IMG/VR virus record: IMGVR_UViG_3300037311_000474
Coordinates: 1 to 40,221 of that record
Origin: a virus
Lineage: Duplodnaviria; Caudoviricetes
Reading direction: 5' to 3' (one strand)
Length of the DNA stretch: 40,221 bases
In this document: piece after piece, positions 1-28,259 of the stretch
Layout: each line of letters starts with the position of its first letter
Position numbering within the stretch: position 1 is the first letter of the stretch
The notes under the pieces: model-generated
The model's database searches: none
Told to the model about the DNA's origin: nothing
Seen by the model: only the letters and a program-made list of their open reading frames with translations
Translations under genes and position numbers: made by a program

Positions 1-1035
1 TCACGGCGTGATCCTGTCCAGCGGGCTTACAGTGCCTCGTGCTGCCACAGATCCGACGACGTGTGTGTAGATCGTCGTCGTCTCGATGTCCTTGTGGCCC
101 AGGAGCTCCTGAATCGTGCGCAGATCGGTACCGGCCTGCAGTAGGTGTGTCGCGAAGCAGTGGCGCAGCGTGTGCGGCGAGGCTGGTTTGCCGATGCCTG
201 CGGCTTGGCTGGCGCTCTTCATGGCCCGCTGCACGGTCCAATCAAAGATGTGGTGTCGCCGATGCTCGCCAGTCTCGGGATCGACGTGATAGCCCTCAGT
301 GGCAAACACGTACTGCCAAGCCCATTCGCTGCCGGCATTCGGATACTTGCGAGCCAAGGCATGCGGCAGGCCGACGCTGGCGTGTCCAGTGGCAAGGTCC
401 AAGTGATGCCAGCGGCGCCGCTCTTCGAGCAGCTCGGTCAGGCGTGATACCAGGCAGCGCGGCACCATGGTGACGCGGTCCTTGTCTCCTTTCCCGCCGC
501 GGACGGTCAGTCGCAGCTGTGGCAGGTCCAGATCCTTGACCCGGAGGTTCTGACCTTCGGCCAAACGCAAGCCGGTGCCGTACAGCAGCTCAAGGAACAG
601 CCTGGCCCGGCCTTGGACGCGCGCCAGCAGAGCCTGGGTCTCCTGTACCGAAAGCACGACGGGGAGCCTCACCGACTGCTTGGCCCGAACGATGCCGTCG
701 ATCCAGCCAATGTCCTCTTCGTACACCTTCTGGTACAAGAACAGAAGCGCCGCCAGTGCTTGGCGTTGGGTGCTGGCTGACACCTTGCGCTCGGTGGCCA
801 GCCAACTCAAGAAGTCGCGAACCTCGGTGTGTCCAAGCTCACGCGGCGGTCGCCCCGCCCAGTGCGCGAACAGCTTGATCCAGTGCCAGTACGCGGAGAA
901 GGTGTGCCGGCTGTAGTGGCGCACTGCGCAGGCGGCCTGCACTGCCTCTCGAAGCGTGCGAGGCCGCGCGTCGCATAACGCCGGCGCGGCGCCGGTCATA
1001 ACGACGGGCTGTGCAGGTGCGACAAGGGCTTGCAT
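1..1035 (-). CDS. intI: Integron integrase (tyrosine recombinase, IntI family)
   Basis: N-terminal HYSxxTxxAYxxW. Box I LLYGTGLR, GGKGDKDR. IntI-specific insertion VGLPHALARKYPNAGSEWAWQYVF. Box II HTLRHCFATHLL...IQELLGH...TTTIYTHV. Confidence 0.97.
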   Translation of the reverse strand: MQALVAPAQPVVMTGAAPALCDARPRTLREAVQAACAVRHYSRHTFSAYWHWIKLFAHWAGRPPRELGHTEVRDFLSWLATERKVSASTQRQALAALLFLYQKVYEEDIGWIDGIVRAKQSVRLPVVLSVQETQALLARVQGRARLFLELLYGTGLRLAEGQNLRVKDLDLPQLRLTVRGGKGDKDRVTMVPRCLVSRLTELLEERRRWHHLDLATGHASVGLPHALARKYPNAGSEWAWQYVFATEGYHVDPETGEHRRHHIFDWTVQRAMKSASQAAGIGKPASPHTLRHCFATHLLQAGTDLRTIQELLGHKDIETTTIYTHVVGSVAARGTVSPLDRITP

Positions 1036-1046
1036 AGCTCGCCGAT

Positions 1047-1087
1047 GGTGTTATCCGACTTGGCTGTCTGCCGAATTCACGTTAGGC
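1047..1087 (+). other. attI: attI-like site, core GTTAGGC at 1081-1087 (crossover G/TT at 1081/1082)
   Basis: GTTRRRY 46 bp upstream of the intI start, with no upstream RYYYAAC partner. GTTAGGCC complements GGCCTAAC of the first attC. An extra GTTATCC lies at 1050-1056. The left boundary is approximate. Confidence 0.75.
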
Positions 1088-1365
1088 CCCGCGAGTTTGC
1101 GGCCCGCGTCAATCAGTGCGTTCATGCCTTCGCCGCCATCCTCGAAGTCCTCCAGATCCGCCACCGCCTGCAACGGCACCAGTGCGACGTTGATCCACGT
1201 CCGCAGAACGTCAGCTTCTCCGCGCAGCCGCTGAATCTCGTCACCATCGGCCTCGATGCGGTCTGCCGCTTGCCGGGCCCGGCTCACAAACTGTCGCAGC
1301 GTCATCGGGTCTGGGCTTTCCGGCATCGGCATGCGCAGCACGCCAAGCAGCATCACATCGCTCAT
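1051..1365 (-). CDS. Cassette 1 hypothetical protein; reads through attI
   Basis: 104 aa, GGAG RBS, phage-like AADRIEA...EIQRLR motif. The stop is 15 bp before the intI start. Confidence 0.75.
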   Translation of the reverse strand: MSDVMLLGVLRMPMPESPDPMTLRQFVSRARQAADRIEADGDEIQRLRGEADVLRTWINVALVPLQAVADLEDFEDGGEGMNALIDAGRKLAGPNVNSADSQVG

Positions 1366-1391: not shown

Positions 1392-1494
1392 GCCTAACTG
1401 GTCGCTCAAGCGGCGACCCAGCACGGCGGGTTAGGTTTCCTTGGTACTCGTAGGCCTCGGCGCCGTGCAGGTCGCCTTAGCTCCTACGTTAGGC
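1392..1494 (+). repeat. attC: attC site 1 (103 bp, repeated family)
   Basis: GCCTAAC-N5-GCTCAAGCGGCGACC...GGTCGCCTTAGC-N6-GTTAGGC, with the extrahelical base in the left L box. Confidence 0.95.
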
Positions 1495-1857
1495 CTTACC
1501 GGGCCGCGCACGGGCGAAGGCGCCCACGCAACTCGTGTCGCTCTTGGCCTGCTGCCTCAGTTCGGCGGCCGTGGTCACTCGCGGAGCGGCATTCGTCGCG
1601 GCCTCTTCCCTGCGCGCATCCACAGCTTCGCCGAGGAACTGGAACGGGTGAACCCATCGCGCCAGCCCGGTGGCGACGGTGTGCTCGGCCAGCCACCGGA
1701 AACGCTCGGCATCTGCCGCGTAGGTCTCGGCTGCCTTCGCAAGCTCGCCGAGCAGCTCGCCGGCTTTCTCGGTGTGCTCAATGGTCCCGAAGGCCAGCGG
1801 GTGCGAGGTCATGCTCATCGCAAGTTGCCTCGCTTCTTCCAGTTTCTGCTTATCCAC
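1489..1857 (-). CDS. Cassette 2 phage hypothetical protein (Ead/Ea22-like DAERFRWL motif)
   Basis: 122 aa. The TAA stop lies inside the R' box of attC1. Confidence 0.7.
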   Translation of the reverse strand: MDKQKLEEARQLAMSMTSHPLAFGTIEHTEKAGELLGELAKAAETYAADAERFRWLAEHTVATGLARWVHPFQFLGEAVDARREEAATNAAPRVTTAAELRQQAKSDTSCVGAFARARPGKA

Positions 1858-1903: not shown

Positions 1904-1955
1904 GCCTAACACTTCGTTCCAGCCGACCTACGGCGGCTGAACTCGGGCGTTGGGC
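1904..1955 (+). repeat. attC: attC site 2 (52 bp, very short)
   Basis: GCCTAAC ACTTC GTTCCAGCCG ACCTACGG CGGCTGAAC TCGGGC GTTGGGC. Confidence 0.9.
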
Positions 1956-2278
1956 GGCTTGCTGTCTGCCGAGGCTGCGGCCTCCTCGACGATCTGCCGC
2001 CGAATCAGGGCGCACTTATCGTCGCCCTCCCACAAACAGCAGATGTCCCAAACTTGGCGCCGCGAAACGCTGTAGCGCTTGCCGCTGAATTGCAAACTGA
2101 TGCCCAGTTTCACCGCCAGCCGCAGCGCATCGCCGTCGTCTTCCAGCGGGTTCCACGGCTCTTGCACGCCGACCAGCAGCAGGCCGCGCCCGTCGTCGCT
2201 CCAGCGCCCAACGCCGTAGCCTGCCGCCTTCGCCGCCTTCTCCACCAATCGCATATCGCGCAAGCTATCCATGCTCAC
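1928..2278 (-). CDS. Cassette 3 phage hypothetical protein
   Basis: AAGGAG RBS. AAKAAG...WNPLEDDGDALRLAVKL resembles phage early hypothetical proteins. Ends inside attC2. Confidence 0.8.
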   Translation of the reverse strand: MSMDSLRDMRLVEKAAKAAGYGVGRWSDDGRGLLLVGVQEPWNPLEDDGDALRLAVKLGISLQFSGKRYSVSRRQVWDICCLWEGDDKCALIRRQIVEEAAASADSKPPNARVQPP

Positions 2279-2301: not shown

Positions 2302-2374
2302 GCCCAACTGCTCGCCCAAGGCCGACCCACTCCGGCCTGCGGCCTACGTGGTCGCCTTGCCTCGGGCGTTAGGC
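2302..2374 (+). repeat. attC: attC site 3 (73 bp)
   Basis: GCCCAAC...CCAAGGCCGACC...GGTCGCCTTG...GTTAGGC. Confidence 0.88.
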
Positions 2375-2375
2375 G

Positions 2376-2600
2376 TCAGCGCAACTCTTTCAGCGTGCTG
2401 GCGTCGTAGCACTTGAAGCCTTCCCATGCCCATGTGCCGCGCAGCCGTTTCCCGCCTTTGGCCTCGCAGTCGGCCTTTGCCGTAACTGCTCCGGTCAGCG
2501 TGATCGCAATCACCGCCAGCGCCACCACGATGAATGCTGCCTTGAGTTGATCTCTGCCAGTACACATGACGCCTAACCCTGCGTTCGAGCGGACGGCCAA
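2376..2600 (-). CDS. Cassette 4 small membrane or exported protein (TTG 2600 inside attC4, or ATG 2567)
   Basis: Hydrophobic AAFIVVALAVIAITLTGAV followed by a Cys pair (CEAKGG...FKC). Confidence 0.65.
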   Translation of the reverse strand: MAVRSNAGLGVMCTGRDQLKAAFIVVALAVIAITLTGAVTAKADCEAKGGKRLRGTWAWEGFKCYDASTLKELR

Positions 2601-2657
2601 TGGCCGTCCTTAGTTGTTGAAACGTCAAGCGGGCCTCCGCTCAACTCCACGTTAGGC
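2571..2657 (+). repeat. attC: attC site 4 (87 bp)
   Basis: GCCTAAC CCTGC GTTCGAGCGGACGGCC...GGCCTCCGCTCAAC TCCAC GTTAGGC. Confidence 0.93.
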
Positions 2658-2936
2658 GCTCGCAAAATCCTTCATCACCAACTCCGCAGCGCCTTCGGGC
2701 AGCAGTTCTGTGCACGTCGAATACTTAGCGTCCATCCATGGCTGTGCGGTGTCCGCGATCCTGGCGCGCAGGAACAAGCCTCTGTTCTCGTCGCCAGCTT
2801 CAGCGTGCGCCAGCGCTCGCGCTTCGGCCTCGGTTTCCGCGCGCACCACAAAGCCGAATGCCTTGTCGTACCACGGTTCCCACGGGTCGTCGTTCTTTGC
2901 CAGCCCGTCCACCGGGCGCAGCAGCCATAGCTTCAT
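2652..2936 (-). CDS. Cassette 5 phage hypothetical protein
   Basis: 94 aa, AAGGAG RBS, YDKAFGFVVRAETEAEAR motif. The stop lies in R' of attC4. Confidence 0.85.
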   Translation of the reverse strand: MKLWLLRPVDGLAKNDDPWEPWYDKAFGFVVRAETEAEARALAHAEAGDENRGLFLRARIADTAQPWMDAKYSTCTELLPEGAAELVMKDFASA

Positions 2937-2957: not shown

Positions 2958-3060
2958 GCCTAACTGTTCGCTCAAGCGGCGACCCAGCACGGCGGGTTAG
3001 GTTTCCTCGGTACTCGTAGGCCTCGGCGCCGTGCAGGTCGCCTTGGCTCCTGCGTTAGGC
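2958..3060 (+). repeat. attC: attC site 5 (103 bp; about 4 mismatches to attC1)
   Basis: Near-identical to 1392-1494. Confidence 0.95.
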
Positions 3061-3386
3061 CGTACAAGGGCGCGCAAAGCCTTCCATGCTTCACAGTAGC
3101 GGCGCGTCCGTCGGTAAAGCGCGGCTTCGTTCTCTTGTTGCGTGCCGTTCAGGCCGCTGGCGCCGTTGTATTCGTCGTGCGCGGCAACAAACTCGGCCAC
3201 AACTGCGCGCAACCGCTCGATCTCGTCGGCCGCCTCGGTCAACAGCGGGTCTGGACTGTCGCGAAGTCCATCAAAGCCAAATAGCTCTTCGCCCTGCGCC
3301 GCTTCGCGCATCCGCTCAAGCATCGGCCTAACAGGCAAGTCAACCTGACCTGCGTCGGCGTTCGGCTTTTGTTCGGTATCAGGCAT
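2997..3386 (-). CDS. Cassette 6 phage hypothetical protein; starts in attC6, ends in attC5
   Basis: AAGGAGG RBS and ATG inside the attC6 loop. LLTEAADEIERLR motif. Confidence 0.75.
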   Translation of the reverse strand: MPDTEQKPNADAGQVDLPVRPMLERMREAAQGEELFGFDGLRDSPDPLLTEAADEIERLRAVVAEFVAAHDEYNGASGLNGTQQENEAALYRRTRRYCEAWKALRALVRPNAGAKATCTAPRPTSTEET

Positions 3387-3423
3387 TTTCACGCCTCCTT
3401 GTCAGGTTACTGGCGCGTTCGGC
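3326..3423 (+). repeat. attC: attC site 6 (98 bp, R' = GTTCGGC)
   Basis: GCCTAAC AGGCAA GTCAACCTGAC...GTCAGGTTAC TGGCGC GTTCGGC. Confidence 0.85.
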
Positions 3424-3424
3424 C

Positions 3425-3736
3425 TCACGCGGTACGCGCTGCGGCGTGCTGGCGCTTGATCCAGTCGGCCCACTCGGCGGCAAACTGCTCGCTGCCAGCC
3501 TTCCACGTTTCGTAACCGTGCGTCCACTCAACCACCACGGCGCGCGCAGCAGGCAATTCGTCGCCAGCCGCTTCGCAAATCCATCGGTTGGTGACGGTGG
3601 CCGCAAATTCGGCCAGGGGCTTGCTGGGGGCCGGAATAAGATCGTCCGGCCCCTCAATGTGCACAGCCCAGCACTTGATGCCGTCAAATGTTTCGCGTAT
3701 CGCTTTAGACAGCGGGCCCTCGGTTTCGTTGCTCAT
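3425..3736 (-). CDS. Cassette 7 phage hypothetical protein
   Basis: 103 aa, AAGGA RBS, WAVHIEGPDDLIPAPS motif. Confidence 0.8.
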   Translation of the reverse strand: MSNETEGPLSKAIRETFDGIKCWAVHIEGPDDLIPAPSKPLAEFAATVTNRWICEAAGDELPAARAVVVEWTHGYETWKAGSEQFAAEWADWIKRQHAAARTA

Positions 3737-3767: not shown

Positions 3768-3870
3768 GCCGAACTGGTCGCTCAAGCGGCGACCCAGCAC
3801 GGCGGGTTAGGTTTCCTCGGTACGCGTAGGCCTCGGCGCCGTGCAGGTCGCCTTAGCTCCTACGTTGTGC
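3768..3870 (+). repeat. attC: attC site 7 (103 bp family; R'' GCCGAAC, R' GTTGTGC)
   Basis: Near-identical core to attC1 and attC5. Confidence 0.93.
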
Positions 3871-3871
3871 T

Positions 3872-4489
3872 TCACGCGGCGCACGCAGCGGGCTCCGTCT
3901 CGCGCCGCAGTTCCGCGATGAACAGCGGCCACAGCGTGCGCCAAAAGTTCACCGCAAATGGCTTCGGCCGCGTCTGGATGTACTCCCACGGCTCGCTGAG
4001 AAACTTGGCCGCATCGGGCTTACTGTCAAGGCGCAGGCTTTGCGCAGCATCGTCCAGCGCGCGCACCCAGTCGTCCGGCGAGCTGGTCGCCCACTGTTCG
4101 CACTCCTTCAGGGCGTCCCACAAGGCGCGGGCGTCTTCCTTGCTCAGCCGAGTGTGCTTGCGGTTCTCAATTACCCGCTCGCGCATCGCCCGCATGCTGC
4201 CGTTGCCGTCGAACTGCTCCAGCTTGGCGCCCAAGAACTTGCCGAAGGCATAGTCGAACTCGACCTCCTGCAGGAACTCCTTGAACGGGTTGGCGCAGGC
4301 CGTCCAGATGTAGCCCCAGGTGCCGAAGCTCGATTGAATGGTGATCTCGCCGCAGTAGTAGGTACCCTCGTGCGGCGTGCCAACGTTGGCGCGGCGGTCC
4401 CAGCAGTGAAGCGTGATGTTTGCCCACTCACCGCCGCGCTTGCCGTCTCGCACTTCGTAGCACTCGCGCACGCTCTTGGTCACTGGCAT
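3872..4489 (-). CDS. Cassette 8 phage hypothetical protein (205 aa from MPVTK)
   Basis: Protein-like composition (GEITIQSSFGTWGYIW), with AAGGA upstream of ATG 4489. Confidence 0.8.
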   Translation of the reverse strand: MPVTKSVRECYEVRDGKRGGEWANITLHCWDRRANVGTPHEGTYYCGEITIQSSFGTWGYIWTACANPFKEFLQEVEFDYAFGKFLGAKLEQFDGNGSMRAMRERVIENRKHTRLSKEDARALWDALKECEQWATSSPDDWVRALDDAAQSLRLDSKPDAAKFLSEPWEYIQTRPKPFAVNFWRTLWPLFIAELRRETEPAACAA

Positions 4490-4519: not shown

Positions 4520-4581
4520 GCACAACTGGTTAATCGAGAGGGACGCCCGCAGGCGGGCGCCCCTCATTGCCGGCGTTAGGC
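4520..4581 (+). repeat. attC: attC site 8 (62 bp), last site of the array
   Basis: GCACAAC TGGTT AATCGAGAGGGACGCCCG CAGG CGGGCGCCCCTCATT GCCGGC GTTAGGC. Confidence 0.85.
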
Positions 4582-4582
4582 T

Positions 4583-4864
4583 TCACGCCATAGCCCCAAC
4601 ACGCGCCGCGTACTGCCACACGGAGGTGGCCTGGCGCAGCGCGTTGCTCATGGGGGAGTCGGCGGCAGCGTAGTCGTCGCCGGTGCGCACTGCGCGGCCG
4701 CTGGCCACGAGGGACTGCAGGGCGCTGTGCACCTGTGCGCGGCTGAGTGCCACAACGGTGAGCACTGCGTCGATCGTCATCGATCCGTGGTCGTGCAGGG
4801 CCTGCAGCACAACCGGCTGAGTGGCCTTGATGGCAATGCGGCGGGCCGCAGTCTTGCGGGGCAT
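4583..4864 (-). CDS. Small winged-helix/HTH DNA-binding protein
   Basis: VVLQALHDHGSMTIDAVLTVVALSRAQVHSALQSLVASG pattern, GGAGG RBS. Confidence 0.6.
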   Translation of the reverse strand: MPRKTAARRIAIKATQPVVLQALHDHGSMTIDAVLTVVALSRAQVHSALQSLVASGRAVRTGDDYAAADSPMSNALRQATSVWQYAARVGAMA

Positions 4865-5064
4865 CAGGCACCTCCTGCCTGCGCGCGCGGCGCATCGTCG
4901 CGGCCGAGCTGGCCGATGCAGACCGTGGTGTCTCGGCCGACGTTGCCGGCCAGCGCACCGACAACTCGACGCTGCACCCGCTGGATCGCGTCCGCCACCT
5001 CGCCCTGGTTGGCGGCCAGGCGGACGACGGCGGTGGGGCCGTCGTGGAGGTGGGCGGTGGTCAT
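4864..5064 (-). CDS. Early hypothetical protein
   Basis: TGATG overlaps with both neighbours. Confidence 0.55.
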   Translation of the reverse strand: MTTAHLHDGPTAVVRLAANQGEVADAIQRVQRRVVGALAGNVGRDTTVCIGQLGRDDAPRAQAGGA

Positions 5065-5327
5065 CAGGCTTCCGTCGTGGTGGGGCTGAGATCGTTCGCA
5101 GCGGCCAGGCGCGCGTCGAACGGTGGGTGGGCGGCGCGCTGCTGTTGGCGGTACAGCGCGAGCGCCATGCCGCTCAGGACCTGGCCCTTGATCGGGTCGT
5201 TCATGGCGGCGGTGATGCTCTTGAACGCGCCCGCCGGGTCGATGCGGCGCAGCGCCTCGGCGAAGAGGGCCTCGTGTGTCTCGGGCGTGAGGCGCACGCG
5301 GTCGGCGGTGGTGCGGCGTGCGTTCAC
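5064..5327 (-). CDS. Early hypothetical protein
   Basis: GTGA overlap. C-terminal FDARLAAAND motif. Confidence 0.55.
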   Translation of the reverse strand: MNARRTTADRVRLTPETHEALFAEALRRIDPAGAFKSITAAMNDPIKGQVLSGMALALYRQQQRAAHPPFDARLAAANDLSPTTTEA

Positions 5328-5542
5328 CGCTGCCACCACAGAGCAATGGCCAGCCGAACGCGCTCCAGAAGCGGCAGGGGGCGGCAGGGCGTGATGGCTG
5401 CGCGCCCGGTACCGGGCACGGTTGGCGGCTCGGATGCTTCTTCCAGGAGCCCGGGCTGCGTCATGGACTCGTCGAAGGCCGGCACCTGGCAGCGGCGCTG
5501 CGGCCAAAGGCTGGGCCGGCTGAGCGGCTTGACGTTGGGCAT
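5324..5542 (-). CDS. Early hypothetical protein
   Basis: Tightly coupled within the leftward operon. Confidence 0.45.
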   Translation of the reverse strand: MPNVKPLSRPSLWPQRRCQVPAFDESMTQPGLLEEASEPPTVPGTGRAAITPCRPLPLLERVRLAIALWWQR

Positions 5543-5544
5543 GA

Positions 5545-5712
5545 TCAGACCCCCTGAGCCAGCAGCCAGCTGATGGCTGCGAACGCGCCGACGCCGGCCA
5601 CCCGCCAGCTCCAGCGCTCGAGCAACTCCACCACCCGGCGCTCGCGCCGCGGGTCGAGCTCGGTGTGCTGCGCCATTGCGAACGCGGCGCGGCGCTGCGG
5701 TGTGTCGTTCAT
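5545..5712 (-). CDS. Small membrane protein
   Basis: GGAGG RBS, ATGA overlap, C-terminal hydrophobic helix. Confidence 0.55.
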   Translation of the reverse strand: MNDTPQRRAAFAMAQHTELDPRRERRVVELLERWSWRVAGVGAFAAISWLLAQGV

Positions 5713-6038
5713 CGAGCACCTCCGTGCAGGTGTTGCTTGGCTGCGGCCGAGCAGGTCAGGAACCAGTGGCGCCAGAAGTCGGCGCGCATGCGCTCGGCCT
5801 GGATGTCGGTGCGGTGCTCGTGCCGGGCCAGCGTGCTGTCGAGCGCCATGTCGCTGGGGCAGGCGGCCTCGAGCTGGGCCGGCGTGGCCGGCTTCACGTA
5901 GGTGCCGGGCGGCTGCTCGTGCAGCGGCCGCGGCCAGCTCGCCGGCTGGGGTGCGGCGCAGCCCTGCAGCAGCACGATGACGGCGCATGCCAGGGTGACA
6001 AGGACGGATGCGGCGAGGTGCCGCCAGACCGGGCTCAT
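5709..6038 (-). CDS. Putative lipoprotein
   Basis: Signal peptide with lipobox-like LLQGC. Confidence 0.55.
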   Translation of the reverse strand: MSPVWRHLAASVLVTLACAVIVLLQGCAAPQPASWPRPLHEQPPGTYVKPATPAQLEAACPSDMALDSTLARHEHRTDIQAERMRADFWRHWFLTCSAAAKQHLHGGAR

Positions 6039-6226
6039 CGCGCCCACCTACGCTGGTTGGCGGAGAGCGGTCCGCGCGCTACATTGCGATTTCCAACCCG
6101 CAGTGTCCGCTTGCAAACCCGTCTCTCCATGAACGCGCCGCGTGAGAAGCCCCACCGGCAATGGGAACCGCCTGTGCCAGCGCCGCCGGCTCGGCCGCCC
6201 GCCCCGCCACCAGCCCCAGCAAAGCG

Positions 6227-6721
6227 ATGACCATGGACCGCAACGACACCACGCTCACCAACACCACCCGCACGCACGGCCAGGCCGTCGCCGAGGTTCA
6301 GTACGCCGTCGAGTTCGGCCGGCTGAACGAGCGCTTCTGGCAGCGGCTGGACACTGTGCTGAACCTGATGCAGGTATTGGCCGGCGCATTGGCCTTGGCA
6401 GGAGCGTTCTCCGCCGGGCAGTGGCTGCCCGTGGCCGGGGTGGTGTTGGCGGTGGTGTCGGCCCTGCAGATCACGCTGGCGCCTGGCCGCCGCGCGGCGG
6501 GCTTCCTCGTCGCGCGGCGCGACTTCAGCGCGCTGCTGATGCGGGCCTGGAAGCTGGACCCGGCAGACCTGGACGCCGAGCTCGAAGCGCTGCGCGCGCA
6601 GGCGCCGCAGGGCCTGGAGCTGCTGAGTGCCCCGGCCTTCAACAACACCAGCCGCCGCAACGGGCACGACACGACGCTGCCCGAGCGCTGGCCGCACCGC
6701 CTGGCGCGCGCGCTGGCCTGA
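6227..6721 (+). CDS. Two-TM membrane protein, SLATT-like architecture
   Basis: Helix, two TM segments, then a helical tail. Antisense to the early operon. Confidence 0.6.
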   Translation: MTMDRNDTTLTNTTRTHGQAVAEVQYAVEFGRLNERFWQRLDTVLNLMQVLAGALALAGAFSAGQWLPVAGVVLAVVSALQITLAPGRRAAGFLVARRDFSALLMRAWKLDPADLDAELEALRAQAPQGLELLSAPAFNNTSRRNGHDTTLPERWPHRLARALA

Positions 6722-7145: not shown

Positions 7146-7185
7146 AATCTACAACTGTTGTGGCCTGTGCGTCAACAGGTGTTGT
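7146..7185 (-). promoter_or_regulatory. PL-like promoter with OL operators
   Basis: Minus strand TTGACG-N18-TAGATT, overlapped by TCAACAGGTGTTGT (7172-7185) and ACAACTGTTGT (7151-7161). These match the cI/cro operators. Confidence 0.75.
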
Positions 7186-7188
7186 TCA

Positions 7189-7948: not shown

Positions 7949-8809
7949 TCAACCTGCCCAGTCGCTGCCGAGCTGCCCGGTCGCGCGTGCGGCGCGGGCG
8001 ATGCGGTCGAGGTAGTCGGCCATGTCCTCGGCGTTCTCGGCCGCGACAAGGCGGCCGGCGGTGCTGAGCAGGTCCACGCTGCGGGCGGCGTGGCCGGCGC
8101 CGCTGCCGCTGACGACAACGTAGCACTGCGTCTTCTGGCCGAAGTGCTCGCGCGCCGCGCGCAGCACTAGGCACTTGGCCTGGGCCTCGAAGATCTTGCC
8201 GCGAACGCTCTCTTCCGCGACCTCGAAGTCCACCGTCTCGGTGATGTGCATCACCGAGTTCTGAAGCGCGAACTCCGCATTCAGCCCGTGCTTGGCGCTC
8301 ACCGGAAAGTTGCGTACCACCTTGTGGGCCGCGATGTCATCGGCGTGCCTGCCCATGATGCCCATGTTCTCGAACTGCCGGCGCAGGCGCGCCCGGGTGT
8401 GCTGGCGCACGCGGTGCACCTCGGGCGCCATGGCCGGCTTTTCTGCGGCCGGGGGCGGCAGCACCGACTCGGCCATCACCGCCTGCACCTGGGCATCGAA
8501 CGTGGCCTGGTTGCTGTAGGCGAAGCTGCCTTCGAACTCATGCAGCGCCAGCGCGCCCTTGCTGCCGGCCAGCACCTCGCGTACTGCGGCAAGGCTGTCG
8601 CACTGGGCCAGGTGCTCGCGCAGGTTGGCGCCCAGGCGCCGCATGCGCCCCTCGGGCGAGCTGGACACGGCGGCGAGCTTCTCGCTGCTGGGCAGCGTGG
8701 CGACGGTCCAGTGCCCGTCTGCCGCCTGAACGACGGCGCCGACGCAAAGCACGTCGATGCGTTCCGCATCGGGGCGAAGGGTCAGGAGGCTGTAGGTGGC
8801 TGTTTTCAT
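7949..8809 (-). CDS. DUF3037-like protein, partner of the HipA-like kinase
   Basis: N-terminal YSLLTLRPDAERIDVLCVGAVV. ATGA-coupled to the kinase. Confidence 0.75.
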   Translation of the reverse strand: MKTATYSLLTLRPDAERIDVLCVGAVVQAADGHWTVATLPSSEKLAAVSSSPEGRMRRLGANLREHLAQCDSLAAVREVLAGSKGALALHEFEGSFAYSNQATFDAQVQAVMAESVLPPPAAEKPAMAPEVHRVRQHTRARLRRQFENMGIMGRHADDIAAHKVVRNFPVSAKHGLNAEFALQNSVMHITETVDFEVAEESVRGKIFEAQAKCLVLRAAREHFGQKTQCYVVVSGSGAGHAARSVDLLSTAGRLVAAENAEDMADYLDRIARAARATGQLGSDWAG

Positions 8810-9519
8810 GGCAGGGCGGATTGTGCGGCGGCCAGCCGGCGCGCGCGAGCGATGGACACCCACCACTGGCGTAACAGCATGCGCGGCTGGGGCGCCAGCC
8901 AGGCGGGCGGCATGGGCGCAAGCACGTCACGCATCCACTCATCCGGCAGCGCCTGGATGGTGCCCAGCACGTCCACGGGGCGTCGATAGGGCATTGTGTC
9001 CTGGCTCAGCAGCAGGCGCAGGCACTGCATGGTGTTGCAGGCCGGCATCGGCAGGCCCGGCAGCGGCCAGCCCAGGACCAGCAGGGCGTGGCTGAAGTCG
9101 ATGACGCGGGCCACCACTTCGCCGTCGAGCTCGAGGTACAGGAAGTTGTCGTGGTGCCGATCCACGTTGTGGGCAAAAAGGTCCAGCGCGTGTGTCTTGG
9201 CGAAGACATCGGCGTTGCTGATGCGCCCGCGCGCCTCCACGAACGACACGCTGCCGCCCTGCCACTGCGAGCCGAAGTAGGCCACGCCCGGCTGATCGAA
9301 GCGCTCCACCACGCTGAAGGGAGGCACCGGCAGCCTGCACGCCTGCGCCAGGTGCGAGCAGATCCACTCGCTGGCCGGCACCATGGGGTGCTTGCCTTGG
9401 CCCTTGCACAGCCAGCGGTGCGTGGTGACGTTGTCGACGCCGATGAAATCGGCAGCGGCGGTGGAGGGCGGGGGCTTGATGCGATGGCAGATGACAGGCA
9501 GCAGACTGGTCTGGATCAT
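8806..9519 (-). CDS. HipA-like (HipA_2/CtkA-type) Ser/Thr kinase
   Basis: WLCK...SEWICSHLAQACRLPVP, NVDRHHDNFL catalytic loop, IDFSHA metal-binding motif. Confidence 0.85.
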   Translation of the reverse strand: MIQTSLLPVICHRIKPPPSTAAADFIGVDNVTTHRWLCKGQGKHPMVPASEWICSHLAQACRLPVPPFSVVERFDQPGVAYFGSQWQGGSVSFVEARGRISNADVFAKTHALDLFAHNVDRHHDNFLYLELDGEVVARVIDFSHALLVLGWPLPGLPMPACNTMQCLRLLLSQDTMPYRRPVDVLGTIQALPDEWMRDVLAPMPPAWLAPQPRMLLRQWWVSIARARRLAAAQSALP

Positions 9520-9995
9520 TCCCTGGGGCGCTCGGTCGTGCCGAGCTGTTGTGGTTGGAATCTGGGTGACTCGATGCTCGCCACTGGCGTGGTGGCCTTT
9601 GCGACGTCCGCGGCCACGGGATCGAGCAGCTCGGCCACGCGGTCGCGGTAGGGCTGCGCGCCCGTCACCAGCAGCGGCAGAAGCCGCTCAAGCTCGGCCC
9701 GGGCCGGGCACGCGGCTATGGCGTCGAGGACTACGGGCAGCGCGTTGCGCAGCGCTGGCGCTGGCGCCGGGGTGACAGTTGCCGACTCAAGATCGCGGGG
9801 GCCGATGCCGGACAGCAGCCACCGTAGGTGGACCTGAAAGTAGTCCGCCAGCGGTTGCGCGTGCACGGACCGCACCGAGTTGCGCTTGATGAGAGCGCTC
9901 AGGATTTGCTGCTCAATGCCTAGATCACGGGCCACCTGAGCTTGGGAAATCGCTCGGTCGTCCAGCAGGAGTTGGAGGCGTGAGCCGAGAGACAT
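9516..9995 (-). CDS. cI: CI-like XRE repressor (no S24 peptidase domain visible)
   Basis: LGSRLQLLLDDRAISQAQVARDLGIEQQILSAL...WLLSGIGP HTH, divergent from cro. Confidence 0.85.
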   Translation of the reverse strand: MSLGSRLQLLLDDRAISQAQVARDLGIEQQILSALIKRNSVRSVHAQPLADYFQVHLRWLLSGIGPRDLESATVTPAPAPALRNALPVVLDAIAACPARAELERLLPLLVTGAQPYRDRVAELLDPVAADVAKATTPVASIESPRFQPQQLGTTERPRE

Positions 9996-10077
9996 GCCTT
10001 GAGTCTGACAACTCGTGTTGTCGGAGGCAAACAACGTTGGTTGCACATGTGGCAACAGTTGTTGTAGGCTACGCGCC
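9996..10077. promoter_or_regulatory. OR region: three 14-bp operators with PRM and PR
   Basis: ACAACTCGTGTTGT (10008-21), ACAACGTTGGTTGC (10031-44), GCAACAGTTGTTGT (10052-65). PR is TTGCAC-N18-TAGGCT. PRM (minus strand) is TTGCCT-N17-CAGACT. Confidence 0.8.
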
Positions 10078-10359
10078 ATGACGCCACTCGCCCAAGCCAT
10101 CGAAGCCGTCGGCAGCCAGTCCGCGCTTGCAAGGAAGTGCGGCGTGGTTCAGCAGCACGTCTGGAATTGGCTGAACCGGGACGGCGCGCCTCCAGCCGAG
10201 CGCTGCCCCGACATCGAGCGCGCCACGGCGGGGCAGGTGACGGTGGAGGAGCTGCGGCCGGACGTGCGCTGGACGCGGGTGGCCGATGCGGAGTGGCCGC
10301 ACTCGGCCGGGCGGCCGTGCATTGATGTGGCGGCGCGGGAGGCGGTGAATGCAGGTTGA
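10078..10359 (+). CDS. cro: Cro-like (YdaS family) regulator
   Basis: AIEAVGSQSALARKCGVVQQHVWNWL...IERATAGQVTVEELRPDV. Confidence 0.9.
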   Translation: MTPLAQAIEAVGSQSALARKCGVVQQHVWNWLNRDGAPPAERCPDIERATAGQVTVEELRPDVRWTRVADAEWPHSAGRPCIDVAAREAVNAG

Positions 10360-10451
10360 AGACAACCTGGCGGTGATAGAGGTGATGCGTTCGTTCAGCT
10401 CGCCATCGTTCGCACAGGGCTTGGACGAGTTGTTCGACGACGTGGCCGAGA

Positions 10452-10703
10452 TCAGTGTGACCTTGTCGGTGGAGGCGTGTCTGGTGTGCGGCCAGTTGCT
10501 GCGCCGTAGAGGGTCTCGAGAGAGTCGATCACCTGTCGAAGTATTGCGGGCGGGATCCAGATCGACGGAAGTGGCTGAACAGTGCCCGCGCTGCGTACGA
10601 ACATCGTCAGAAGCACCATGACCTCGGTGGATTGGTCGCGTCGCGCCGCCTGCACCAGATCGGCGTGGAAGTGCTGCAACAGCAGCGGCTTTGCTTTTTC
10701 CAT
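10452..10703 (-). CDS. Hypothetical protein, antisense between cro and the CII-like gene
   Basis: AAGGAGG RBS before MEKAKP, 83 aa. Confidence 0.45.
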   Translation of the reverse strand: MEKAKPLLLQHFHADLVQAARRDQSTEVMVLLTMFVRSAGTVQPLPSIWIPPAILRQVIDSLETLYGAATGRTPDTPPPTRSH

Positions 10704-11026
10704 GGGCGCCCTCCTTCGGGCTGTGTGTCGGGGGACGTGCAGCGTAACTCCGAAGGCAGGGCTGCCCGCCATTGCCTCCGCCAGGTGCACGGGGTGTGTG
10801 CCTGGTCTTTGCGCCCTCTGGCCGCGGCGACGCGGCGCCCGGGATGCCCCTGCTGGGGCTCTCCTCCCCCTTGCCGCCGCGTGCGGCGCGGGGCTCGCGG
10901 GCGGCGCTCTTTCTCTGCTCCAAGCCGGCTTGCGCTGAGGCGCGGCGGGCGTCCGTCTGAACCTGGCGTTGCATGGCCGCAGTCTCGGCTCCGGCACTGA
11001 TAACGCCCGCACCTGGGAGATACGAA

Positions 11027-11428
11027 ATGCCATCGGGGGTTATCAGTGAATCGCAGCCGCGGCAGCTGACGCTGGCGCTCGACGAAGGCCTGGCGGACCG
11101 CTTCGGCTGCCTGCGCGAGGTGGTGGCGCAGGGGGTGTACCAGCGCGGGCTGAAGCGCGCGGCGGCCGACCTGGATGAGGCGCCCGGCAACCTGAGCGTG
11201 CAGCTCGCCGGCGACGGGCAGCGCAAGTTCAGTGTCGACCAGCTCGAGCGGTACATCCAGTGCACCGGCGACAAGACGCCGATCCTGTTCCTCGTGGCCA
11301 AGTACCTGGGCGACCAGGGCGCGGCGCGCGACGCGGCCATGGAGCAGGTGATGTCGATGCTGACCCAGCTTCCGGCCATGCTGGCCAGCGCTGGGCTCCC
11401 CACCGCACCCGCAAGGCGCCGCTCGTGA
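11027..11428 (+). CDS. Phage CII-like regulator
   Basis: GLKRAAADLDEAPGNLSVQL HTH-like segment, position after cro. Confidence 0.65.
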   Translation: MPSGVISESQPRQLTLALDEGLADRFGCLREVVAQGVYQRGLKRAAADLDEAPGNLSVQLAGDGQRKFSVDQLERYIQCTGDKTPILFLVAKYLGDQGAARDAAMEQVMSMLTQLPAMLASAGLPTAPARRRS

Positions 11429-12216
11429 AGGCGCGCACCACTGGGCTGAAGCAGGCCATCGCTGCGACCGAGCGCATCGCCACGGGCATGGCCGGCGTGG
11501 CGGCCCGGGTGATCAACGACCAGGCCTACGCTGCACGCAAGGAACTGCAGAGCGAGATGGCGCGTGTGTTCGATCGCCCGACGCCGTTCGTGCAGCGCAG
11601 CCTGTGGGTGGACCAGGCGTCGCCGGCCAAGCTGTCGGCCAGGCTGTGGCCGCGCAGCTTGGGTGGCAAGGGCGCGGACCCCGAGCGTGTGCTGGCGCCG
11701 CAGGTGTTTGGCGGTGACCGCGACCTGAAGCGCAGCGAGCGCGCGCTGCGGCGCGTCGGCATCCTGCAGCCGGGCTTTTGGACCGTGCCCGGGTCGGGCG
11801 CGCCGCCGGAGAAGATCGACCGCTTCGGGAATTTGAAGGGCAGCTTCATCGCGCAGCTGCTCAGCTACTTCCGCGCTCAGGGCGAACAGGGCTACCGGGC
11901 CAACATGACGGACCGCCGGCGCAAGGCGCTGGCGAAGAAGCGGCGCGGCGACAGCGGCTTCCTTCGCATCGAAGGCGTGGAGTATTTCGCCACGCAGGGC
12001 AGGCTTCGCGATGGCCCGGGCTCGCACCTTCGGCCGGGCATCTACTCGCGCAAGGGCACGCACGGCTCGGACATCAAGCCCGTGCTGGTGTTCGTGCGGC
12101 GGCCGAGGTACAGCAAGCGCCTGGACTTCGGCGGGATCTCGGAGCGCGTTGCAGGTCGCGTGGCGCCGGTGGCGTTCGAGCAGCGCATGCGGGCTGTGGC
12201 CAGGGTGCGTGGATGA
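11425..12216 (+). CDS. Basic phage protein, gpZ/HK97-gp10-like
   Basis: EMARVFDRPTPFVQRS motif and C-terminal PVLVFVRRPRYSKRLDF. Confidence 0.6.
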   Translation: MKARTTGLKQAIAATERIATGMAGVAARVINDQAYAARKELQSEMARVFDRPTPFVQRSLWVDQASPAKLSARLWPRSLGGKGADPERVLAPQVFGGDRDLKRSERALRRVGILQPGFWTVPGSGAPPEKIDRFGNLKGSFIAQLLSYFRAQGEQGYRANMTDRRRKALAKKRRGDSGFLRIEGVEYFATQGRLRDGPGSHLRPGIYSRKGTHGSDIKPVLVFVRRPRYSKRLDFGGISERVAGRVAPVAFEQRMRAVARVRG

Positions 12217-18422: not shown

Positions 18423-18434
18423 TCCAGCCAGGCC

Positions 18435-20335: not shown

Positions 20336-22315
20336 ATGCCGCTTACGCGCAACCGCAACCGCCCTTACGAAACCGACGACAACAACGGGTTGCCGCTGCA
20401 GCCGGGCGCTCGCGTGTATGAGGGCGCTGCGATGGGCTCCACGAGCAGCGGCGTGCGCCCGCTGGTCTTGGGCGATCCGTTCGCCGGGTTTGCGGTGGCG
20501 GCCAGCACGCCGCAGGACACCGCTTGCCGGGTGCGGACCCGCGGGCAGGTGCTGCTCAACGTAGCCGGCGTCGTCGCAGCGTCCGATTTCGGCAAACTCG
20601 TGTACGCCACCGATGACGACACATTCACGCTGACGCCGGGCCAAAGTGTTGTCGGACGCGTCATGCGGCATGTAAGCGGATCTCTGGCTTTGGTGCAGTT
20701 CGACGCTGCCTTGCCGGTTTTCAACGCTCAGCAGCAAATCGTTCTTGCCCCATCCGGAGGCGACGACGCTTTGCTGATGCAGCAATTCGTCAACGACATG
20801 GCCGCTTCGAAGCGACCGGCGGTTCTTGGTGCCGGCGACTTCATCATCGGTTCGCCGATGACCTGGAGAAGCCAACAGCGGCTCGGCAAGTGGGACAACA
20901 AAGGCATCGGTCTGCGTGTCCTGGGTCAGGGGCCCGAGAACACGAGACTGCTGTCTGCGATCGTTGGCAACGCGCCCATGATCTCGGTCAGTGCGCCGTC
21001 CTCGGCCGGCATCGGCAAGCGCAACTACCTCACCGAAATCGGCGGGATGTCGTGGTTGAGGGCGCCCGAAGGGGTCTTGATCCCGGCTGGCACCACCAGC
21101 GGCGAGGCGTTTCGCGCGATCCCAATCGTCGACACCTACGAGGTCAACGTCGCTGCACTGTTCCGCAACCTTTACATCGACGGCTTCGATCACTGCATCA
21201 CGCTCTCGGACAACACCATCGCCGAGCTCGAGGGCGTCTGGTTCATGGAGTTCTTGACCGGCGTGCGCCTGGGCTTCAACTGCGACGTGATCAAGATGCG
21301 CCGCTGCTGGTGGGGCAGTGAGCAGTTCGGAACCTCGTACCGCAACAACGCCGTGGCGGTGCAACCCGGGTTCGACGACGGGCGCGGCAACGGCAACGCC
21401 GGGCAAAACTGCATCGAGCTGGACCACTGCGCGATGGCCAAGATCGGCTGCGGAGTGGAATGTGCGGATGGCAGCACGGCCAGCGGCATCCTGTTCCACG
21501 AGGTGTTCTTCGAGGGTGTTCGGCAGTATTTTCACCACCTTGGCAACACCACGCAGGATTCGATCGTCACCTTCTCGCACTGCCACTTCTCCTCGGTCAC
21601 GATCAACGACACCACGCAGCACGACCCGACGCTGGCGGGCTACGAGGCCAAGATCCAGTTCGACGGTGACATCGCCGTCAGCGGCGGCAAGCGGCCGATC
21701 CTCACGCTGCGCAACTGCGTCTCCGACACCAACGCGCAGCCGGGCAACGCCTGGATCAGCTTCAACAACCGTGAGGGTTTCATCACTCTCGAAAACAACC
21801 GGCTGCGGCCCTCGGCTTCTTTTGGCATTGCACGTTGCATCCGCACCGGTTGGCAGACCTGGAAGAGCTTTCCGGTGGACTCTGCGCAGCAGGGTGGCAG
21901 TTTCCAGTTGGGCGATTCGCAGCAGGCCGGCCTGGGGATGCTCGCCGGACGCCCGATGCAGGTCAGCGCCACGATCACGCCGGGTTCGACATACGACCTG
22001 GACGTGCTTGCTGGCACCGAGTTCGCGCTCACGCTGCCGGACGGCGACTGCACGATCAACGTCTTCAACTTCACCGGCACCCCGCCGAACCGGATCGTCT
22101 CGGCTCTCACCGAGTTGAGCATTGTCTTGATCCTGCCCGCCAGCGTTACCGCCACACGCACGATCACCTGGGGCTCGCGGCTCAAGATGAACGCAGCGAC
22201 GTTGACCTACGGGGCTGCCGACGGCAACAAACGCGCCGTGTTCAAGGTCAAAGGCGCGGGCTTCGGCAACACGATGCTGTTGTCCACCGCTGGGCCAGTT
22301 TTTGCTTCAGCCTGA
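20336..22315 (+). CDS. Head-decoration-like N-domain fused to a putative beta-helix (pectate lyase-like) domain
   Basis: First ~120 aa paralogous to 22345 and 27426. APSGGDDA...QQF...VLGAGDF resembles a beta-helix cap. Confidence 0.65.
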   Translation: MPLTRNRNRPYETDDNNGLPLQPGARVYEGAAMGSTSSGVRPLVLGDPFAGFAVAASTPQDTACRVRTRGQVLLNVAGVVAASDFGKLVYATDDDTFTLTPGQSVVGRVMRHVSGSLALVQFDAALPVFNAQQQIVLAPSGGDDALLMQQFVNDMAASKRPAVLGAGDFIIGSPMTWRSQQRLGKWDNKGIGLRVLGQGPENTRLLSAIVGNAPMISVSAPSSAGIGKRNYLTEIGGMSWLRAPEGVLIPAGTTSGEAFRAIPIVDTYEVNVAALFRNLYIDGFDHCITLSDNTIAELEGVWFMEFLTGVRLGFNCDVIKMRRCWWGSEQFGTSYRNNAVAVQPGFDDGRGNGNAGQNCIELDHCAMAKIGCGVECADGSTASGILFHEVFFEGVRQYFHHLGNTTQDSIVTFSHCHFSSVTINDTTQHDPTLAGYEAKIQFDGDIAVSGGKRPILTLRNCVSDTNAQPGNAWISFNNREGFITLENNRLRPSASFGIARCIRTGWQTWKSFPVDSAQQGGSFQLGDSQQAGLGMLAGRPMQVSATITPGSTYDLDVLAGTEFALTLPDGDCTINVFNFTGTPPNRIVSALTELSIVLILPASVTATRTITWGSRLKMNAATLTYGAADGNKRAVFKVKGAGFGNTMLLSTAGPVFASA

Positions 22316-26311: not shown

Positions 26312-27388
26312 ATGCGCACCGCAGCCCATTCCAAGCCCGCCGATCAAAGCGCCCAACCGGCAGAAGCGTCGCTGCTGCTTACGGCGCCGCTGGAGCTCAA
26401 GGCGGCGGATGGCGGGCAGCTACCCACGCGCTTTGCCGGTGCCGCCTACACCGGTGGCATGGTCCCTGGCTACGGCGTCGTCATCGACATGGCGACGACG
26501 ACCTACAAGGACAAGCTCCCGCTGCTGGCCGAGCACTGGCGTTCTGACGTCGTCGGTGTCATCGAGCAGGCCGAGACGCGCGACTGGACGATGCTGGTCG
26601 CCGGCAAGCTGTTCAGCGACATGGAGGGCAGCCAAGCCGAGAAGATCGGTCAGCTCGCCTCGCGTGGCGTTCCGTTCGAGATGTCCGTCGGCCTGTATCA
26701 CTTCACGCGTGAGTTCGTGCCGGCCGGCAAGAGCGTGCAGGTCAACGGCCAGACCTTCCAGGGCCCCGTCGATGTGCTGCGCAACGGCGTAGTGCGCGAG
26801 GTCTCGATCGTCGTGCTCGGCGCGGATGCCGCCACGAACGCCAGCTTCTTCTCGGCCTCGCGGCCGCAATCCCCGCAACTGCACCCCGGAGCCCCGCTCA
26901 TGGACCTCGCCCAACTCCAGGCCCGCGTGGCCGAACTCGAAGCCGCTGCAGCCACGCACGCCGCGGCGCTTTCCGCCGCCCGCGCCGAAAGCGCAGCCGC
27001 CGAGCTGGCCCGCATCCGGGCTGTTCACGAGCAGGCGATGCCCGGCCACGAGAAGCTGCTGCTGCAGCTGATGTTCGACGGCAAGACCTCGGGTGCCGAG
27101 GCCGCCGTGCAGGTGCTGGCCGCCGAGCGGGCGCAGCTCGCCGCCAAGGGCCAGGCGCTGCAGCTCGACGCGCCGCGGCCGGTGACGCCGGCTGCCGCCC
27201 CGGCGGTGCCCGCCCAGCAGCAGCAGGCCACGGACGATTCGCTGCCGCTCGCGGAGCGCGCCAAGCGGCAGTGGGATGCAGACGCCAACGTGCGGCGCGA
27301 GTTTGCGACGCTGGACGACTACACCGCCTTCCTGAAGGCCGACGCGCAAGGGCGCGTCCGCCGCATGGTTGGCAAGGCCTCGGCCTGA
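26312..27388 (+). CDS. Prohead protease / scaffold
   Basis: LPLLAEH, FEMSVG, VREVSIVVLGAD, then an Ala-rich coiled scaffold. Confidence 0.85.
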   Translation: MRTAAHSKPADQSAQPAEASLLLTAPLELKAADGGQLPTRFAGAAYTGGMVPGYGVVIDMATTTYKDKLPLLAEHWRSDVVGVIEQAETRDWTMLVAGKLFSDMEGSQAEKIGQLASRGVPFEMSVGLYHFTREFVPAGKSVQVNGQTFQGPVDVLRNGVVREVSIVVLGADAATNASFFSASRPQSPQLHPGAPLMDLAQLQARVAELEAAAATHAAALSAARAESAAAELARIRAVHEQAMPGHEKLLLQLMFDGKTSGAEAAVQVLAAERAQLAAKGQALQLDAPRPVTPAAAPAVPAQQQQATDDSLPLAERAKRQWDADANVRREFATLDDYTAFLKADAQGRVRRMVGKASA

Positions 27389-27425
27389 TTCCGGCCTTCA
27401 CCCACCTCACACGGGACACCACGCC

Positions 27426-28196: not shown

Positions 28197-28259
28197 CCTG
28201 GCGCAGGCACACGCGACACCGGATCGAACACCGAACCTCCTTCGAAGGACGACATCACC

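What the first reader, a model, noticed from the sequence alone, without database searches (positions are those of the whole stretch)
4520..4600. Open-ended array terminus: the phage body may be a giant cassette, with IntI as its integrase
After attC8, the R' GTTAGGC is followed directly by the stop of phage gene 4583-4864. It has the same context as cassettes 7 and 8 (minus strand GCGTGA-R-GCNNAAC). I found no further attC, and there is no other integrase in the window although the phage has a lysogeny switch. Three alternatives: IntI integrates the phage and a closing attC lies beyond 40221; the array grew from a secondary GTT site in the phage; or a separate integrase lies just outside the window.
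Basis: inference. Interest (0 to 1): 0.7.

Follow-up and report, generated by a model that had tools for sequence, protein, structure and literature searches.

The report
Fixed end of a phage integron
This temperate phage carries its own integron with eight back-to-front gene cassettes; the array's open end is likely just its fixed anchor, and the phage likely enters the host chromosome with a separate, ordinary integrase just outside the sequenced piece, not as one giant cassette.

Summary
attC8 (4520-4581) is the last of 8 attC sites, its R' GTTAGGC is followed after 1 nt by the stop of gene 4583-4864, and the window holds no further attC and no second recombinase. The junction scores like a real cassette start (above all 1837 control GTT sites).

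The giant-cassette idea is very unlikely. The record is a trimmed provirus that stops exactly at intI's stop codon, and DNA continues beyond it. All 7 closest IntI relatives have a second integrase: tyrosine or serine, either behind intI or at the other prophage end. In the wider phage clade 23 of 28 have one within 3 kb. Two complete circular phages read array-intI-xis-int. One prophage is bounded by tRNA-Val att copies. A sister phage keeps array, terminus and serine integrase but lacks intI. Related phage pairs share one fixed terminus behind different cassette sets.

The flanks of this provirus were not seen, so its own integrase is inferred. What is unusual is the system: a phage-adapted integron lineage with reversed cassettes in the early operon. 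This scan noted that lineage before on other DNA (e1-3299080).

The parts
1..1035 (-). intI, integron integrase (344 aa); the record begins exactly at its stop codon
   Evidence: TIGR02249 390 bits, cutoff 265; catalytic motifs TGLR, GKGDKDR, HTLRH, LGH..TT.IY present
1040..1087 (+). attI-like site; conserved GAATT(N3) directly before the R box GTTAGGC; predicted crossover G1081/T1082
   Evidence: motif shared by 14 aligned relatives; relatives with identical attI have different first cassettes
1051..1365 (-). cassette 1 gene (cassette 1082-1488); its stop lies inside attI
1392..1494 (+). attC1
1489..1857 (-). cassette 2 gene
1904..1955 (+). attC2
1928..2278 (-). cassette 3 gene (phrog_5086); its stop lies inside attC2
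2302..2374 (+). attC3
2376..2567 (-). cassette 4 gene (small, hydrophobic N-terminus)
2571..2657 (+). attC4
2652..2936 (-). cassette 5 gene
2958..3060 (+). attC5 (same repeat family as attC1 and attC7)
2997..3392 (-). cassette 6 gene; starts inside attC6 and ends inside attC5
3326..3423 (+). attC6
3425..3736 (-). cassette 7 gene
3768..3870 (+). attC7
3872..4489 (-). cassette 8 gene (phrog_13202)
4520..4581 (+). attC8, the last attC; R' GTTAGGC, crossover G4575/T4576 = fixed array terminus
   Evidence: an attC7-like site joined directly to 4574 in run X4
4583..4864 (-). terminal gene, 93 aa, predicted winged-HTH; cassette-type 3' end, but start overlaps the upstream gene's stop (TGATG) and no attC follows
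   Evidence: singleton in protein search; DUF977/HTH look-alikes; junctions; GC 0.695, GC3 0.84
4864..6038 (-). five small, tightly coupled backbone early genes with no attC between them
   Evidence: no PHROG family
7146..7186 (-). pL-like promoter consensus with an operator-like repeat; likely drives the early operon, the cassettes and intI
   Evidence: consensus scan; CAAC-N3-5-GTTG repeats at 7173, 10009, 10032, 10053; function inferred
9516..10100 (-). repressor (Cro/C1-type HTH) of the lysogeny switch
   Evidence: PF13443 and phrog_4

Best explanation
The junction at 4575/4576 is likely the fixed far end of an integron that belongs to the phage, and the phage likely integrates with a separate conventional integrase lying just outside the trimmed record. 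Shown: intI, an attI-like site and eight chained cassettes sit at the distal end of the leftward early operon, with their genes pointing towards intI. Inferred from integron biochemistry: IntI inserts each new cassette at attI (G1081/T1082), pushing older cassettes outwards, so the last attC is always followed by whatever first stood to the right of attI. Here that sequence has the form of a cassette start, most simply a former cassette end whose own attC was lost when it became fused to the backbone operon. Inferred from relatives: a xis-int module follows intI beyond position 1, or a serine integrase lies beyond 40221, and it acts on an ordinary attP. IntI's job is predicted to be shuffling the phage's accessory early genes, with intI co-transcribed from the pL-like promoter.
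For: The record is a provirus that begins at intI's stop and ends at a start codon. A contig of run X1 runs 1624 nt past position 1. geNomad extends provirus borders to the closest integrase within 10 kb, using tyrosine-integrase profiles only (PMC11324519 passage); that this record was cut that way is my inference. In a quick tree the IntI falls in an 8-row subclade (SH-aLRT 99) inside a 32-row phage clade (93). All 7 subclade relatives have a second recombinase: a tyrosine integrase behind intI in L001, L003, L004, L006 and L007 (L006 is below the Pfam cutoff), and a large serine recombinase at the opposite record end in L002 and L005. 23 of 28 clade loci with >=1.4 kb downstream have a second recombinase within 3 kb, against 2 of 66 other loci. 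Complete circles G011 and G012 read array-intI-excisionase-integrase, and the scorer finds no attC near the late genes. Prophage G006 lies between an intact tRNA-Val and a 47-nt, 83% copy of its 3' part 37.7 kb away. L001, the closest relative, has int followed by a tRNA-Ser-like site and lysis genes. In G007 a sister variant keeps 4 attC, the same terminal gene and the serine integrase but has no intI. Three pairs of related phages share one terminus behind different cassette sets: L002/L005, L008/L009, L026/L023. A 151-nt contig in run X4 joins an attC with 2 differences from attC1 (attC7 differs from attC1 at exactly 2 places there) straight to 4574, as excision of cassette 8 would. The terminus scores 7.1 bits on a cassette-start matrix, above all 1837 backbone GTT controls. 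In L009 the last cassette has only an R'' plus 7 nt before the next R', a decayed attC.
Against: Neither flank of this provirus was read; the second integrase is inferred. The X1 contig that crosses position 1 was not among the 8 of 200 pieces listed when X1 was laid on L001's xis-int region at 80%, so no likeness to L001's integrase was shown. Three incomplete records with one identical IntI (L023, L024, L027) have no second integrase between intI and the lysis genes, although their sister records L025 and L026 do. L051 has none within 10 kb and L010's lie 3.4 and 5.5 kb away. The terminal gene looks like backbone, not like a former cassette: TGATG coupling, GC 0.695 against 0.60-0.67 for the cassette genes, and no attC remnant. 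The X4 joint is one contig of depth 2.1 and its mismatching letters were not shown. G007 is a MAG contig and could be a chimera of related phages. Clade members are not all independent: L008/9, L022/56 and L023-27 share identical IntI. The integrase HMMs were built from 20 proteins of these loci, so Pfam is the independent check.
Confidence: 0.85

Rival explanations
1. Giant cassette: intI and the array belong to the host, and the 36-kb phage body is a ninth cassette closed by an attC beyond 40221, excised and integrated by IntI.
For: The terminus is a cassette-type start. No other recombinase lies in the record. [quoted passage not shown]
Against: The IntI belongs to a phage clade in which complete circles contain intI, the array, xis and int. 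The cassettes hold phage-type genes (2 of 8 match PHROGs) co-directional with the early operon. Clade prophages sit at tRNA att sites. A sister phage lacks intI but keeps its integrase.
Confidence: 0.03
2. The integron is phage-borne, but this particular phage has lost or lacks a second integrase and uses IntI to integrate, for example via a site between intI and the lysis genes, or at host attC or attG sites.
For: L023, L024 and L027 carry IntI with no second integrase before the lysis genes. IntI can insert at GWT genomic sites (attG; 10.1101/2022.09.11.507474 passages).
Against: attI is intact and internal in this provirus, so it was not the integration site. The scorer found no attC downstream of intI in L023-L027, and those records are linear fragments not shown to be integrated. 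All 7 closest relatives have a second recombinase.
Confidence: 0.06
3. The array grew from a secondary GTT (attG-like) site at the end of a backbone phage gene, so the terminus is the right half of that site and was never part of a cassette. This is compatible with a separate integrase.
For: The terminal gene is backbone-like in coupling and GC. Termini differ between phage groups, and three score like background (L002, L007, L020). attG needs only GWT.
Against: The window's terminus scores above all 1837 control GTT sites and within the top fifth of 81 true cassette starts. 13 of 17 array ends exceed the control 95th percentile. That count is rough: the walker stopped early in L005 and L009, and L052 is an N run.
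Confidence: 0.15

Closest known systems
Classical integrons (intI, attI, attC cassette array), including chromosomal integrons of Betaproteobacteria
   Same: TIGR02249 integrase above cutoff. attI with a GTT R box lies upstream of intI. attC has R''/L''/L'/R' with the extra C in L''. Each cassette's R'' complements its own start (8 of 8, 7-12 bp). Related arrays differ first at the attI-proximal end.
   Different: Carried by a temperate phage lineage. Cassette genes are reversed (65 R, 12 F, 4 unclear in the clade, against 10 R, 57 F, 10 unclear in other loci) and point towards intI. They are likely read from the phage early promoter rather than Pc, so the newest cassette is furthest from the promoter. 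Genes often start or stop inside att sites.
Integrons and CALINs in phage genomes (Qi et al. 2023, PMC9892861; parts 1-4 of 7 read, supplements not seen)
   Same: Complete integrons and attC clusters inside temperate phage genomes; a Vibrio prophage bounded by attC sites.
   Different: Their complete integrons are captured pieces of host or class 1 integrons (3 complete and 1 In0 among 10,705 phages). Here the IntI forms a phage clade with its own attI motif, phage-type reversed cassettes and a neighbouring xis-int. None of the 9 GenBank phage records hit by this IntI exceeds 54% identity.
qacE-delta-1 / 3'-conserved segment of class 1 integrons (recalled, no call)
   Same: An array ending in a cassette-type start whose attC was lost by fusion to the next gene.
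   Different: Here the fixed gene is a phage early HTH gene coupled to the backbone operon, and its cassette origin is inferred, not shown.
Lambdoid xis-int-attP integration modules (tRNA-targeting tyrosine integrases; large serine integrases)
   Same: In relatives the early operon ends in xis-int, followed by attP or attL at tRNA-Ser, -Cys or -Val, or in a serine integrase.
   Different: An integron (attI-intI) is inserted directly in front of xis-int. For this window the module is predicted, not seen.

Membership tests
integron | IntI tyrosine recombinase of the integron-integrase family | tested here: met
   TIGR02249 390 bits, cutoff 265; catalytic motifs
integron | attI site next to intI where new cassettes enter at G/TT | tested here: met
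   Conserved GAATT(N3)GTT in relatives; identical attI with different first cassettes in L008/L009 and L023-L027. Comparative evidence only, no recombination assay.
integron | attC sites with paired R and L boxes and an extrahelical base; cassette ends complementary | tested here: met
   8 of 8 sites, extra C in L'' on the + strand; 8 of 8 cassettes chained with 7-12 bp complementarity
integron | Cassette genes oriented away from intI and expressed from Pc | tested here: not met
   8 of 8 genes are reversed; the scan found no Pc-like consensus near attI. This is the usual arrangement rather than a strict requirement, so the system is filed as a variant.
integron | IntI-catalysed recombination via folded single-stranded attC | not testable with these tools
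   Indirect only: one depth-2.1 contig consistent with cassette 8 excision
gene cassette (phage body as giant cassette) | Starts with TTRRRY after an R' | tested here: met
   TTAGGC at 4576; 7.1 bits, above all 1837 controls
gene cassette (phage body as giant cassette) | Closed by an attC whose R'' complements that start (GCCTAAC) | tested here: inconclusive
   Absent from 4582-40221; right flank not available; no closing attC in the complete circular relatives G011 and G012
gene cassette (phage body as giant cassette) | The excised unit excludes intI and has no integrase of its own | tested here: not met
   Tested in relatives, not in this provirus: complete circles include intI, xis and int
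temperate phage with conventional att integration | Dedicated integrase and attL/attR repeats at the prophage ends | tested here: inconclusive
   Not inside the record; flanks unseen; present in 7 of 7 closest relatives; tRNA-Val att copies in G006

The most novel reading that the evidence does not exclude
These phages are cassette factories. The array terminus is the front where backbone early genes and cassettes interconvert: a gene already formatted with an R' at its stop, like 4583-4864, becomes a mobile cassette once an attC is placed at its start, and cassettes become backbone by attC decay, as in L009. That would give a phage-based route to the unknown origin of integron cassettes.
Probability: 0.2. 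Interest if true: 0.85.

Novelty: new variant of a known kind. Interest (0 to 1): 0.55.

Why it matters
The specific claim, a phage moving as a giant cassette, would have been striking but does not survive comparison with relatives. The open array end is the normal anatomy of an attI-grown array.

What remains matters. A clade of temperate phages appears to keep an integron as an accessory-gene shuffler wired into the early operon in front of xis-int, with reversed cassettes that hold phage-type genes. That extends integrons from bacterial adaptation to phage genome mosaicism. It also offers a tractable place to study how cassettes are born and lost.

Five literature searches of the held library found only Qi et al. 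2023 on integrons in phages; I judged this from search listings and abstract starts. In the parts I read, that paper does not describe such a lineage. Subscription journals are mostly missing from the library, so it may be in print elsewhere.

Tried and rejected
Reading the flanks of this provirus failed.
- An exact-pattern scan of metagenome contigs found nothing.
- An IntI scan of metagenome contigs returned no near-identical locus; the best was 68%.
- Laying run X1 on L001's xis-int region did not list the contig that crosses position 1 (8 of 200 pieces shown).
- A homolog search with L001's integrase listed no protein on a contig of the parent's length among the 120 of 1786 hits shown.
- The right end was never laid with reads, because both lay calls were used.

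Searches for relatives of the terminal gene and the cassette genes gave little.
- The terminal gene has no relative in viral contigs and only itself in the protein search.
- The cassette 8 gene has no relative in viral contigs or GenBank phages.
- tblastn of 13 window genes against 149 loci gave no hit. So I could not test whether the terminal gene is a cassette elsewhere.

Other dead ends.
- A first orientation test was mis-specified, because genes start and stop inside att sites; one search replaced it.
- Exact far-repeat searches missed the imperfect attR-like copy in G006, which short-word BLAST then found. No attR was found in G004 or G010, which are trimmed records.
- Virus Rctr41k (44% to IntI) was only looked at by its annotation and not analysed further.
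- The small read shares in runs X2, X3 and X5 are not used as habitat evidence.
- The tree is the quick version without bootstrap. 8 of 120 IntI-like rows were left out for a short match or an internal stop, including L016, L039 and L050.

Full report
1. The observation. The window is the whole record G000, a provirus rated 95% complete. It is a lambdoid temperate phage with repressor, primase, gpA terminase, portal, tail and lysis genes. It starts at the stop codon of intI (1-1035, minus strand; TIGR02249 390 bits, cutoff 265) and ends at the ATG of a 74-aa ORF. My attC scorer finds 8 sites, all with the extra C of L'' on the + strand, at 1392-1494, 1904-1955, 2302-2374, 2571-2657, 2958-3060, 3326-3423, 3768-3870 and 4520-4581. 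It finds none at score >=24 in the remaining 35.6 kb on either strand; 20 Markov controls gave 1 hit in all. Each cassette's R'' complements its own start over 7-12 bp, including the unusual pairs GTTCGGC/GCCGAAC and GTTGTGC/GCACAAC, as expected of units that circularise. All 8 genes are on the minus strand, so reversed relative to classical cassettes. After attC8's R' come 1 nt and the stop of gene 4583-4864, as after the R' of cassettes 7 and 8. No + strand GCCTAAC lies beyond 3326, and there is no second tyrosine or serine recombinase in the record.

2. Why the record has only IntI. The DNA does not end at position 1: a 1718-nt contig of run X1 matches 1-94 and continues for 1624 nt, letters not shown. 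The terminal gene's protein is on record from a 150,764-bp contig. geNomad extends provirus borders to the closest integrase within 10 kb, using tyrosine-integrase profiles only (PMC11324519, passages read). That IMG/VR records are cut this way is recalled, and that this record was is inferred; it would explain a border exactly at intI. Relative G003 likewise ends 9 bp after intI. I could not read either flank.

3. What relatives show about integration. The IntI retrieved 49 viral, 80 genome and 80 metagenome loci. In a quick tree of 112 rows (8 of 120 dropped) it falls in a 32-row clade of viral records and four genome contigs (SH-aLRT 93), and in an 8-row subclade (99). All 7 subclade relatives have a second recombinase. 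It is a tyrosine integrase behind intI in L001, L003, L004, L006 (below the Pfam cutoff) and L007, and a large serine recombinase at the other record end in L002 and L005. Across the clade, 23 of 28 loci with at least 1.4 kb downstream have one within 3 kb. The comparison figures are 2 of 66 other loci and 4 of 44 metagenome loci, all four with the phage-type attI motif and two of them the same contigs as L004 and L015. The HMMs were built from 20 proteins of these loci, so Pfam is the independent check. The five exceptions are L010 (recombinases 3.4 and 5.5 kb away), L051, and L023/L024/L027, three fragments with no integrase between intI and lysis although their identical-IntI sisters L025/L026 have one. 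Two complete circles, G011 and G012, read array-intI-excisionase-integrase-lysis, so the integron travels in the phage. Prophage G006 runs from an intact tRNA-Val to a 47-nt, 83% copy of its 3' part 37.7 kb away. L001 (86% IntI identity) has a small xis-like ORF (my reading, not scanned), an integrase, a tRNA-Ser-like site and then lysis genes. L003, L007, L018 and L019 have tRNA-Cys or tRNA-Val behind the second integrase. In G007 a tandem variant keeps four attC, the same terminal gene and the serine integrase, but has no intI; this MAG contig could be chimeric. The integration module changes freely while IntI stays, and IntI can be lost while the integrase stays. IntI is therefore very unlikely to be the phage's integrase.

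4. What the terminus is. By established integron biochemistry, insertion at attI splits the R box between G and TT and pushes the right-hand side outwards, so every array ends in an R' followed by fixed DNA. Loot et al. (10.1101/2022.09.11.507474, passages) note that changes in the right part of attI1 did not hamper recombination, and that folded attC sites are easily deleted. Three pairs of related phages share an identical terminus behind different cassette sets: L002/L005, L008/L009 and L026/L023. For this phage, a 151-nt contig of depth 2.1 in run X4 joins an attC with 2 differences from attC1 directly to 4574-4653. attC7 differs from attC1 at exactly 2 places in that stretch, so this is consistent with precise loss of cassette 8, though the letters were not shown. 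On a matrix from 81 cassette starts (including the window's own 8) the terminus scores 7.1 bits, above all 1837 backbone GTT sites. 13 of 17 array ends exceed the control 95th percentile, with the caveat that the walker stopped early in L005 and L009 and L052 is an N run. A random secondary site is therefore a poor fit. A former cassette start that lost its attC fits better, and L009 shows such decay (R'' plus 7 nt, then R'). Against that, the terminal gene's body looks like backbone: its ATG overlaps the upstream stop, no attC remnant is present, and GC is 0.695, between cassettes (0.60-0.67) and backbone early genes (0.71-0.74). It is a singleton with predicted winged-HTH look-alikes.

5. 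Likely working. Shown: the anatomy, chained cassettes, variable arrays and second integrases in relatives. Inferred: a pL-like promoter at 7146-7175, next to an operator-like repeat also found at the repressor switch, drives backbone genes, then cassettes, then intI and probably xis-int. IntI would then be made when repression lifts and would reshuffle accessory early genes during phage growth. One opposite-strand gene (6161-6721) interrupts this run. Reversed genes dominate the clade (65 R, 12 F, 4 unclear) but not other loci (10 R, 57 F, 10 unclear), by a heuristic ORF and ribosome-binding-site score.

6. Comparison and novelty. The system works like an integron and meets the IntI, attI and attC tests, but not the usual gene orientation. 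Searches (listings and abstract starts only) found no description of a phage-adapted IntI clade with reversed cassettes. No GenBank phage carries an IntI above 54% identity to this one. Earlier notes of this scan describe the same lineage on other DNA; my notes show I had reached this reading before seeing them.

7. Verdict. The giant-cassette hypothesis has about 3% left and IntI-mediated integration by another route about 6%. The terminus itself is ordinary integron anatomy. The surrounding system is a new variant of a known kind. Interest 0.55.

Noticed in passing
window 2997-3392, 1928-2278, 1051-1365: Cassette genes use att sites as coding sequence: the cassette 6 gene starts inside attC6 and ends inside attC5; genes 1 and 3 stop inside attI and attC2. 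Their C-termini would change with the neighbouring cassette. Read-through into attC is common across the clade.
   Followed up: partly
window 1392-1510, 2958-3076, 3768-3886: Three attC copies 87-93% alike carry unrelated genes, suggesting one attC was reused to format several cassettes.
   Followed up: no
G007 (L133) 8039-11608: Phage variant with a four-attC array and a serine integrase but no intI; an endonuclease VII-like gene stands where attI-intI would be. A possible origin of phage CALINs.
   Followed up: partly
L009, about 1440 nt upstream of intI: Cassette whose attC is reduced to R'' plus 7 nt plus R', apparently immobilised.
   Followed up: partly
L023, L024, L027 downstream of intI: Variants in which the SSB / integrase module of L025 and L026 is replaced by RusA and small genes; no integrase before lysis.
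   Followed up: partly
L028-L031, L034, L036, L038: A separate, well-supported viral clade of IntI-like proteins (45-50% identity) with no upstream attC array by my scorer; some have attC-like sites downstream.
   Followed up: no
window 7949-9519: HipA-like kinase gene (weak Pfam, below cutoff; phrog_3162) and a partner ORF (phrog_5137) next to the repressor; possibly a lysogen-expressed defence pair.
   Followed up: no
window 20336-22315 and 27369-28519: Two phrog_1731 virion-protein matches, related 72-nt repeats (D2) and a 47-nt repeat at 18434 and 26257 suggest a duplicated or interrupted head module, with a GDSL lipase gene between them.
   Followed up: no
L001 in run X1: The closest relative's phage is present at 100% identity in the same run that holds this window, at higher depth, so two IntI phages co-occur and could exchange cassettes.
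   Followed up: no
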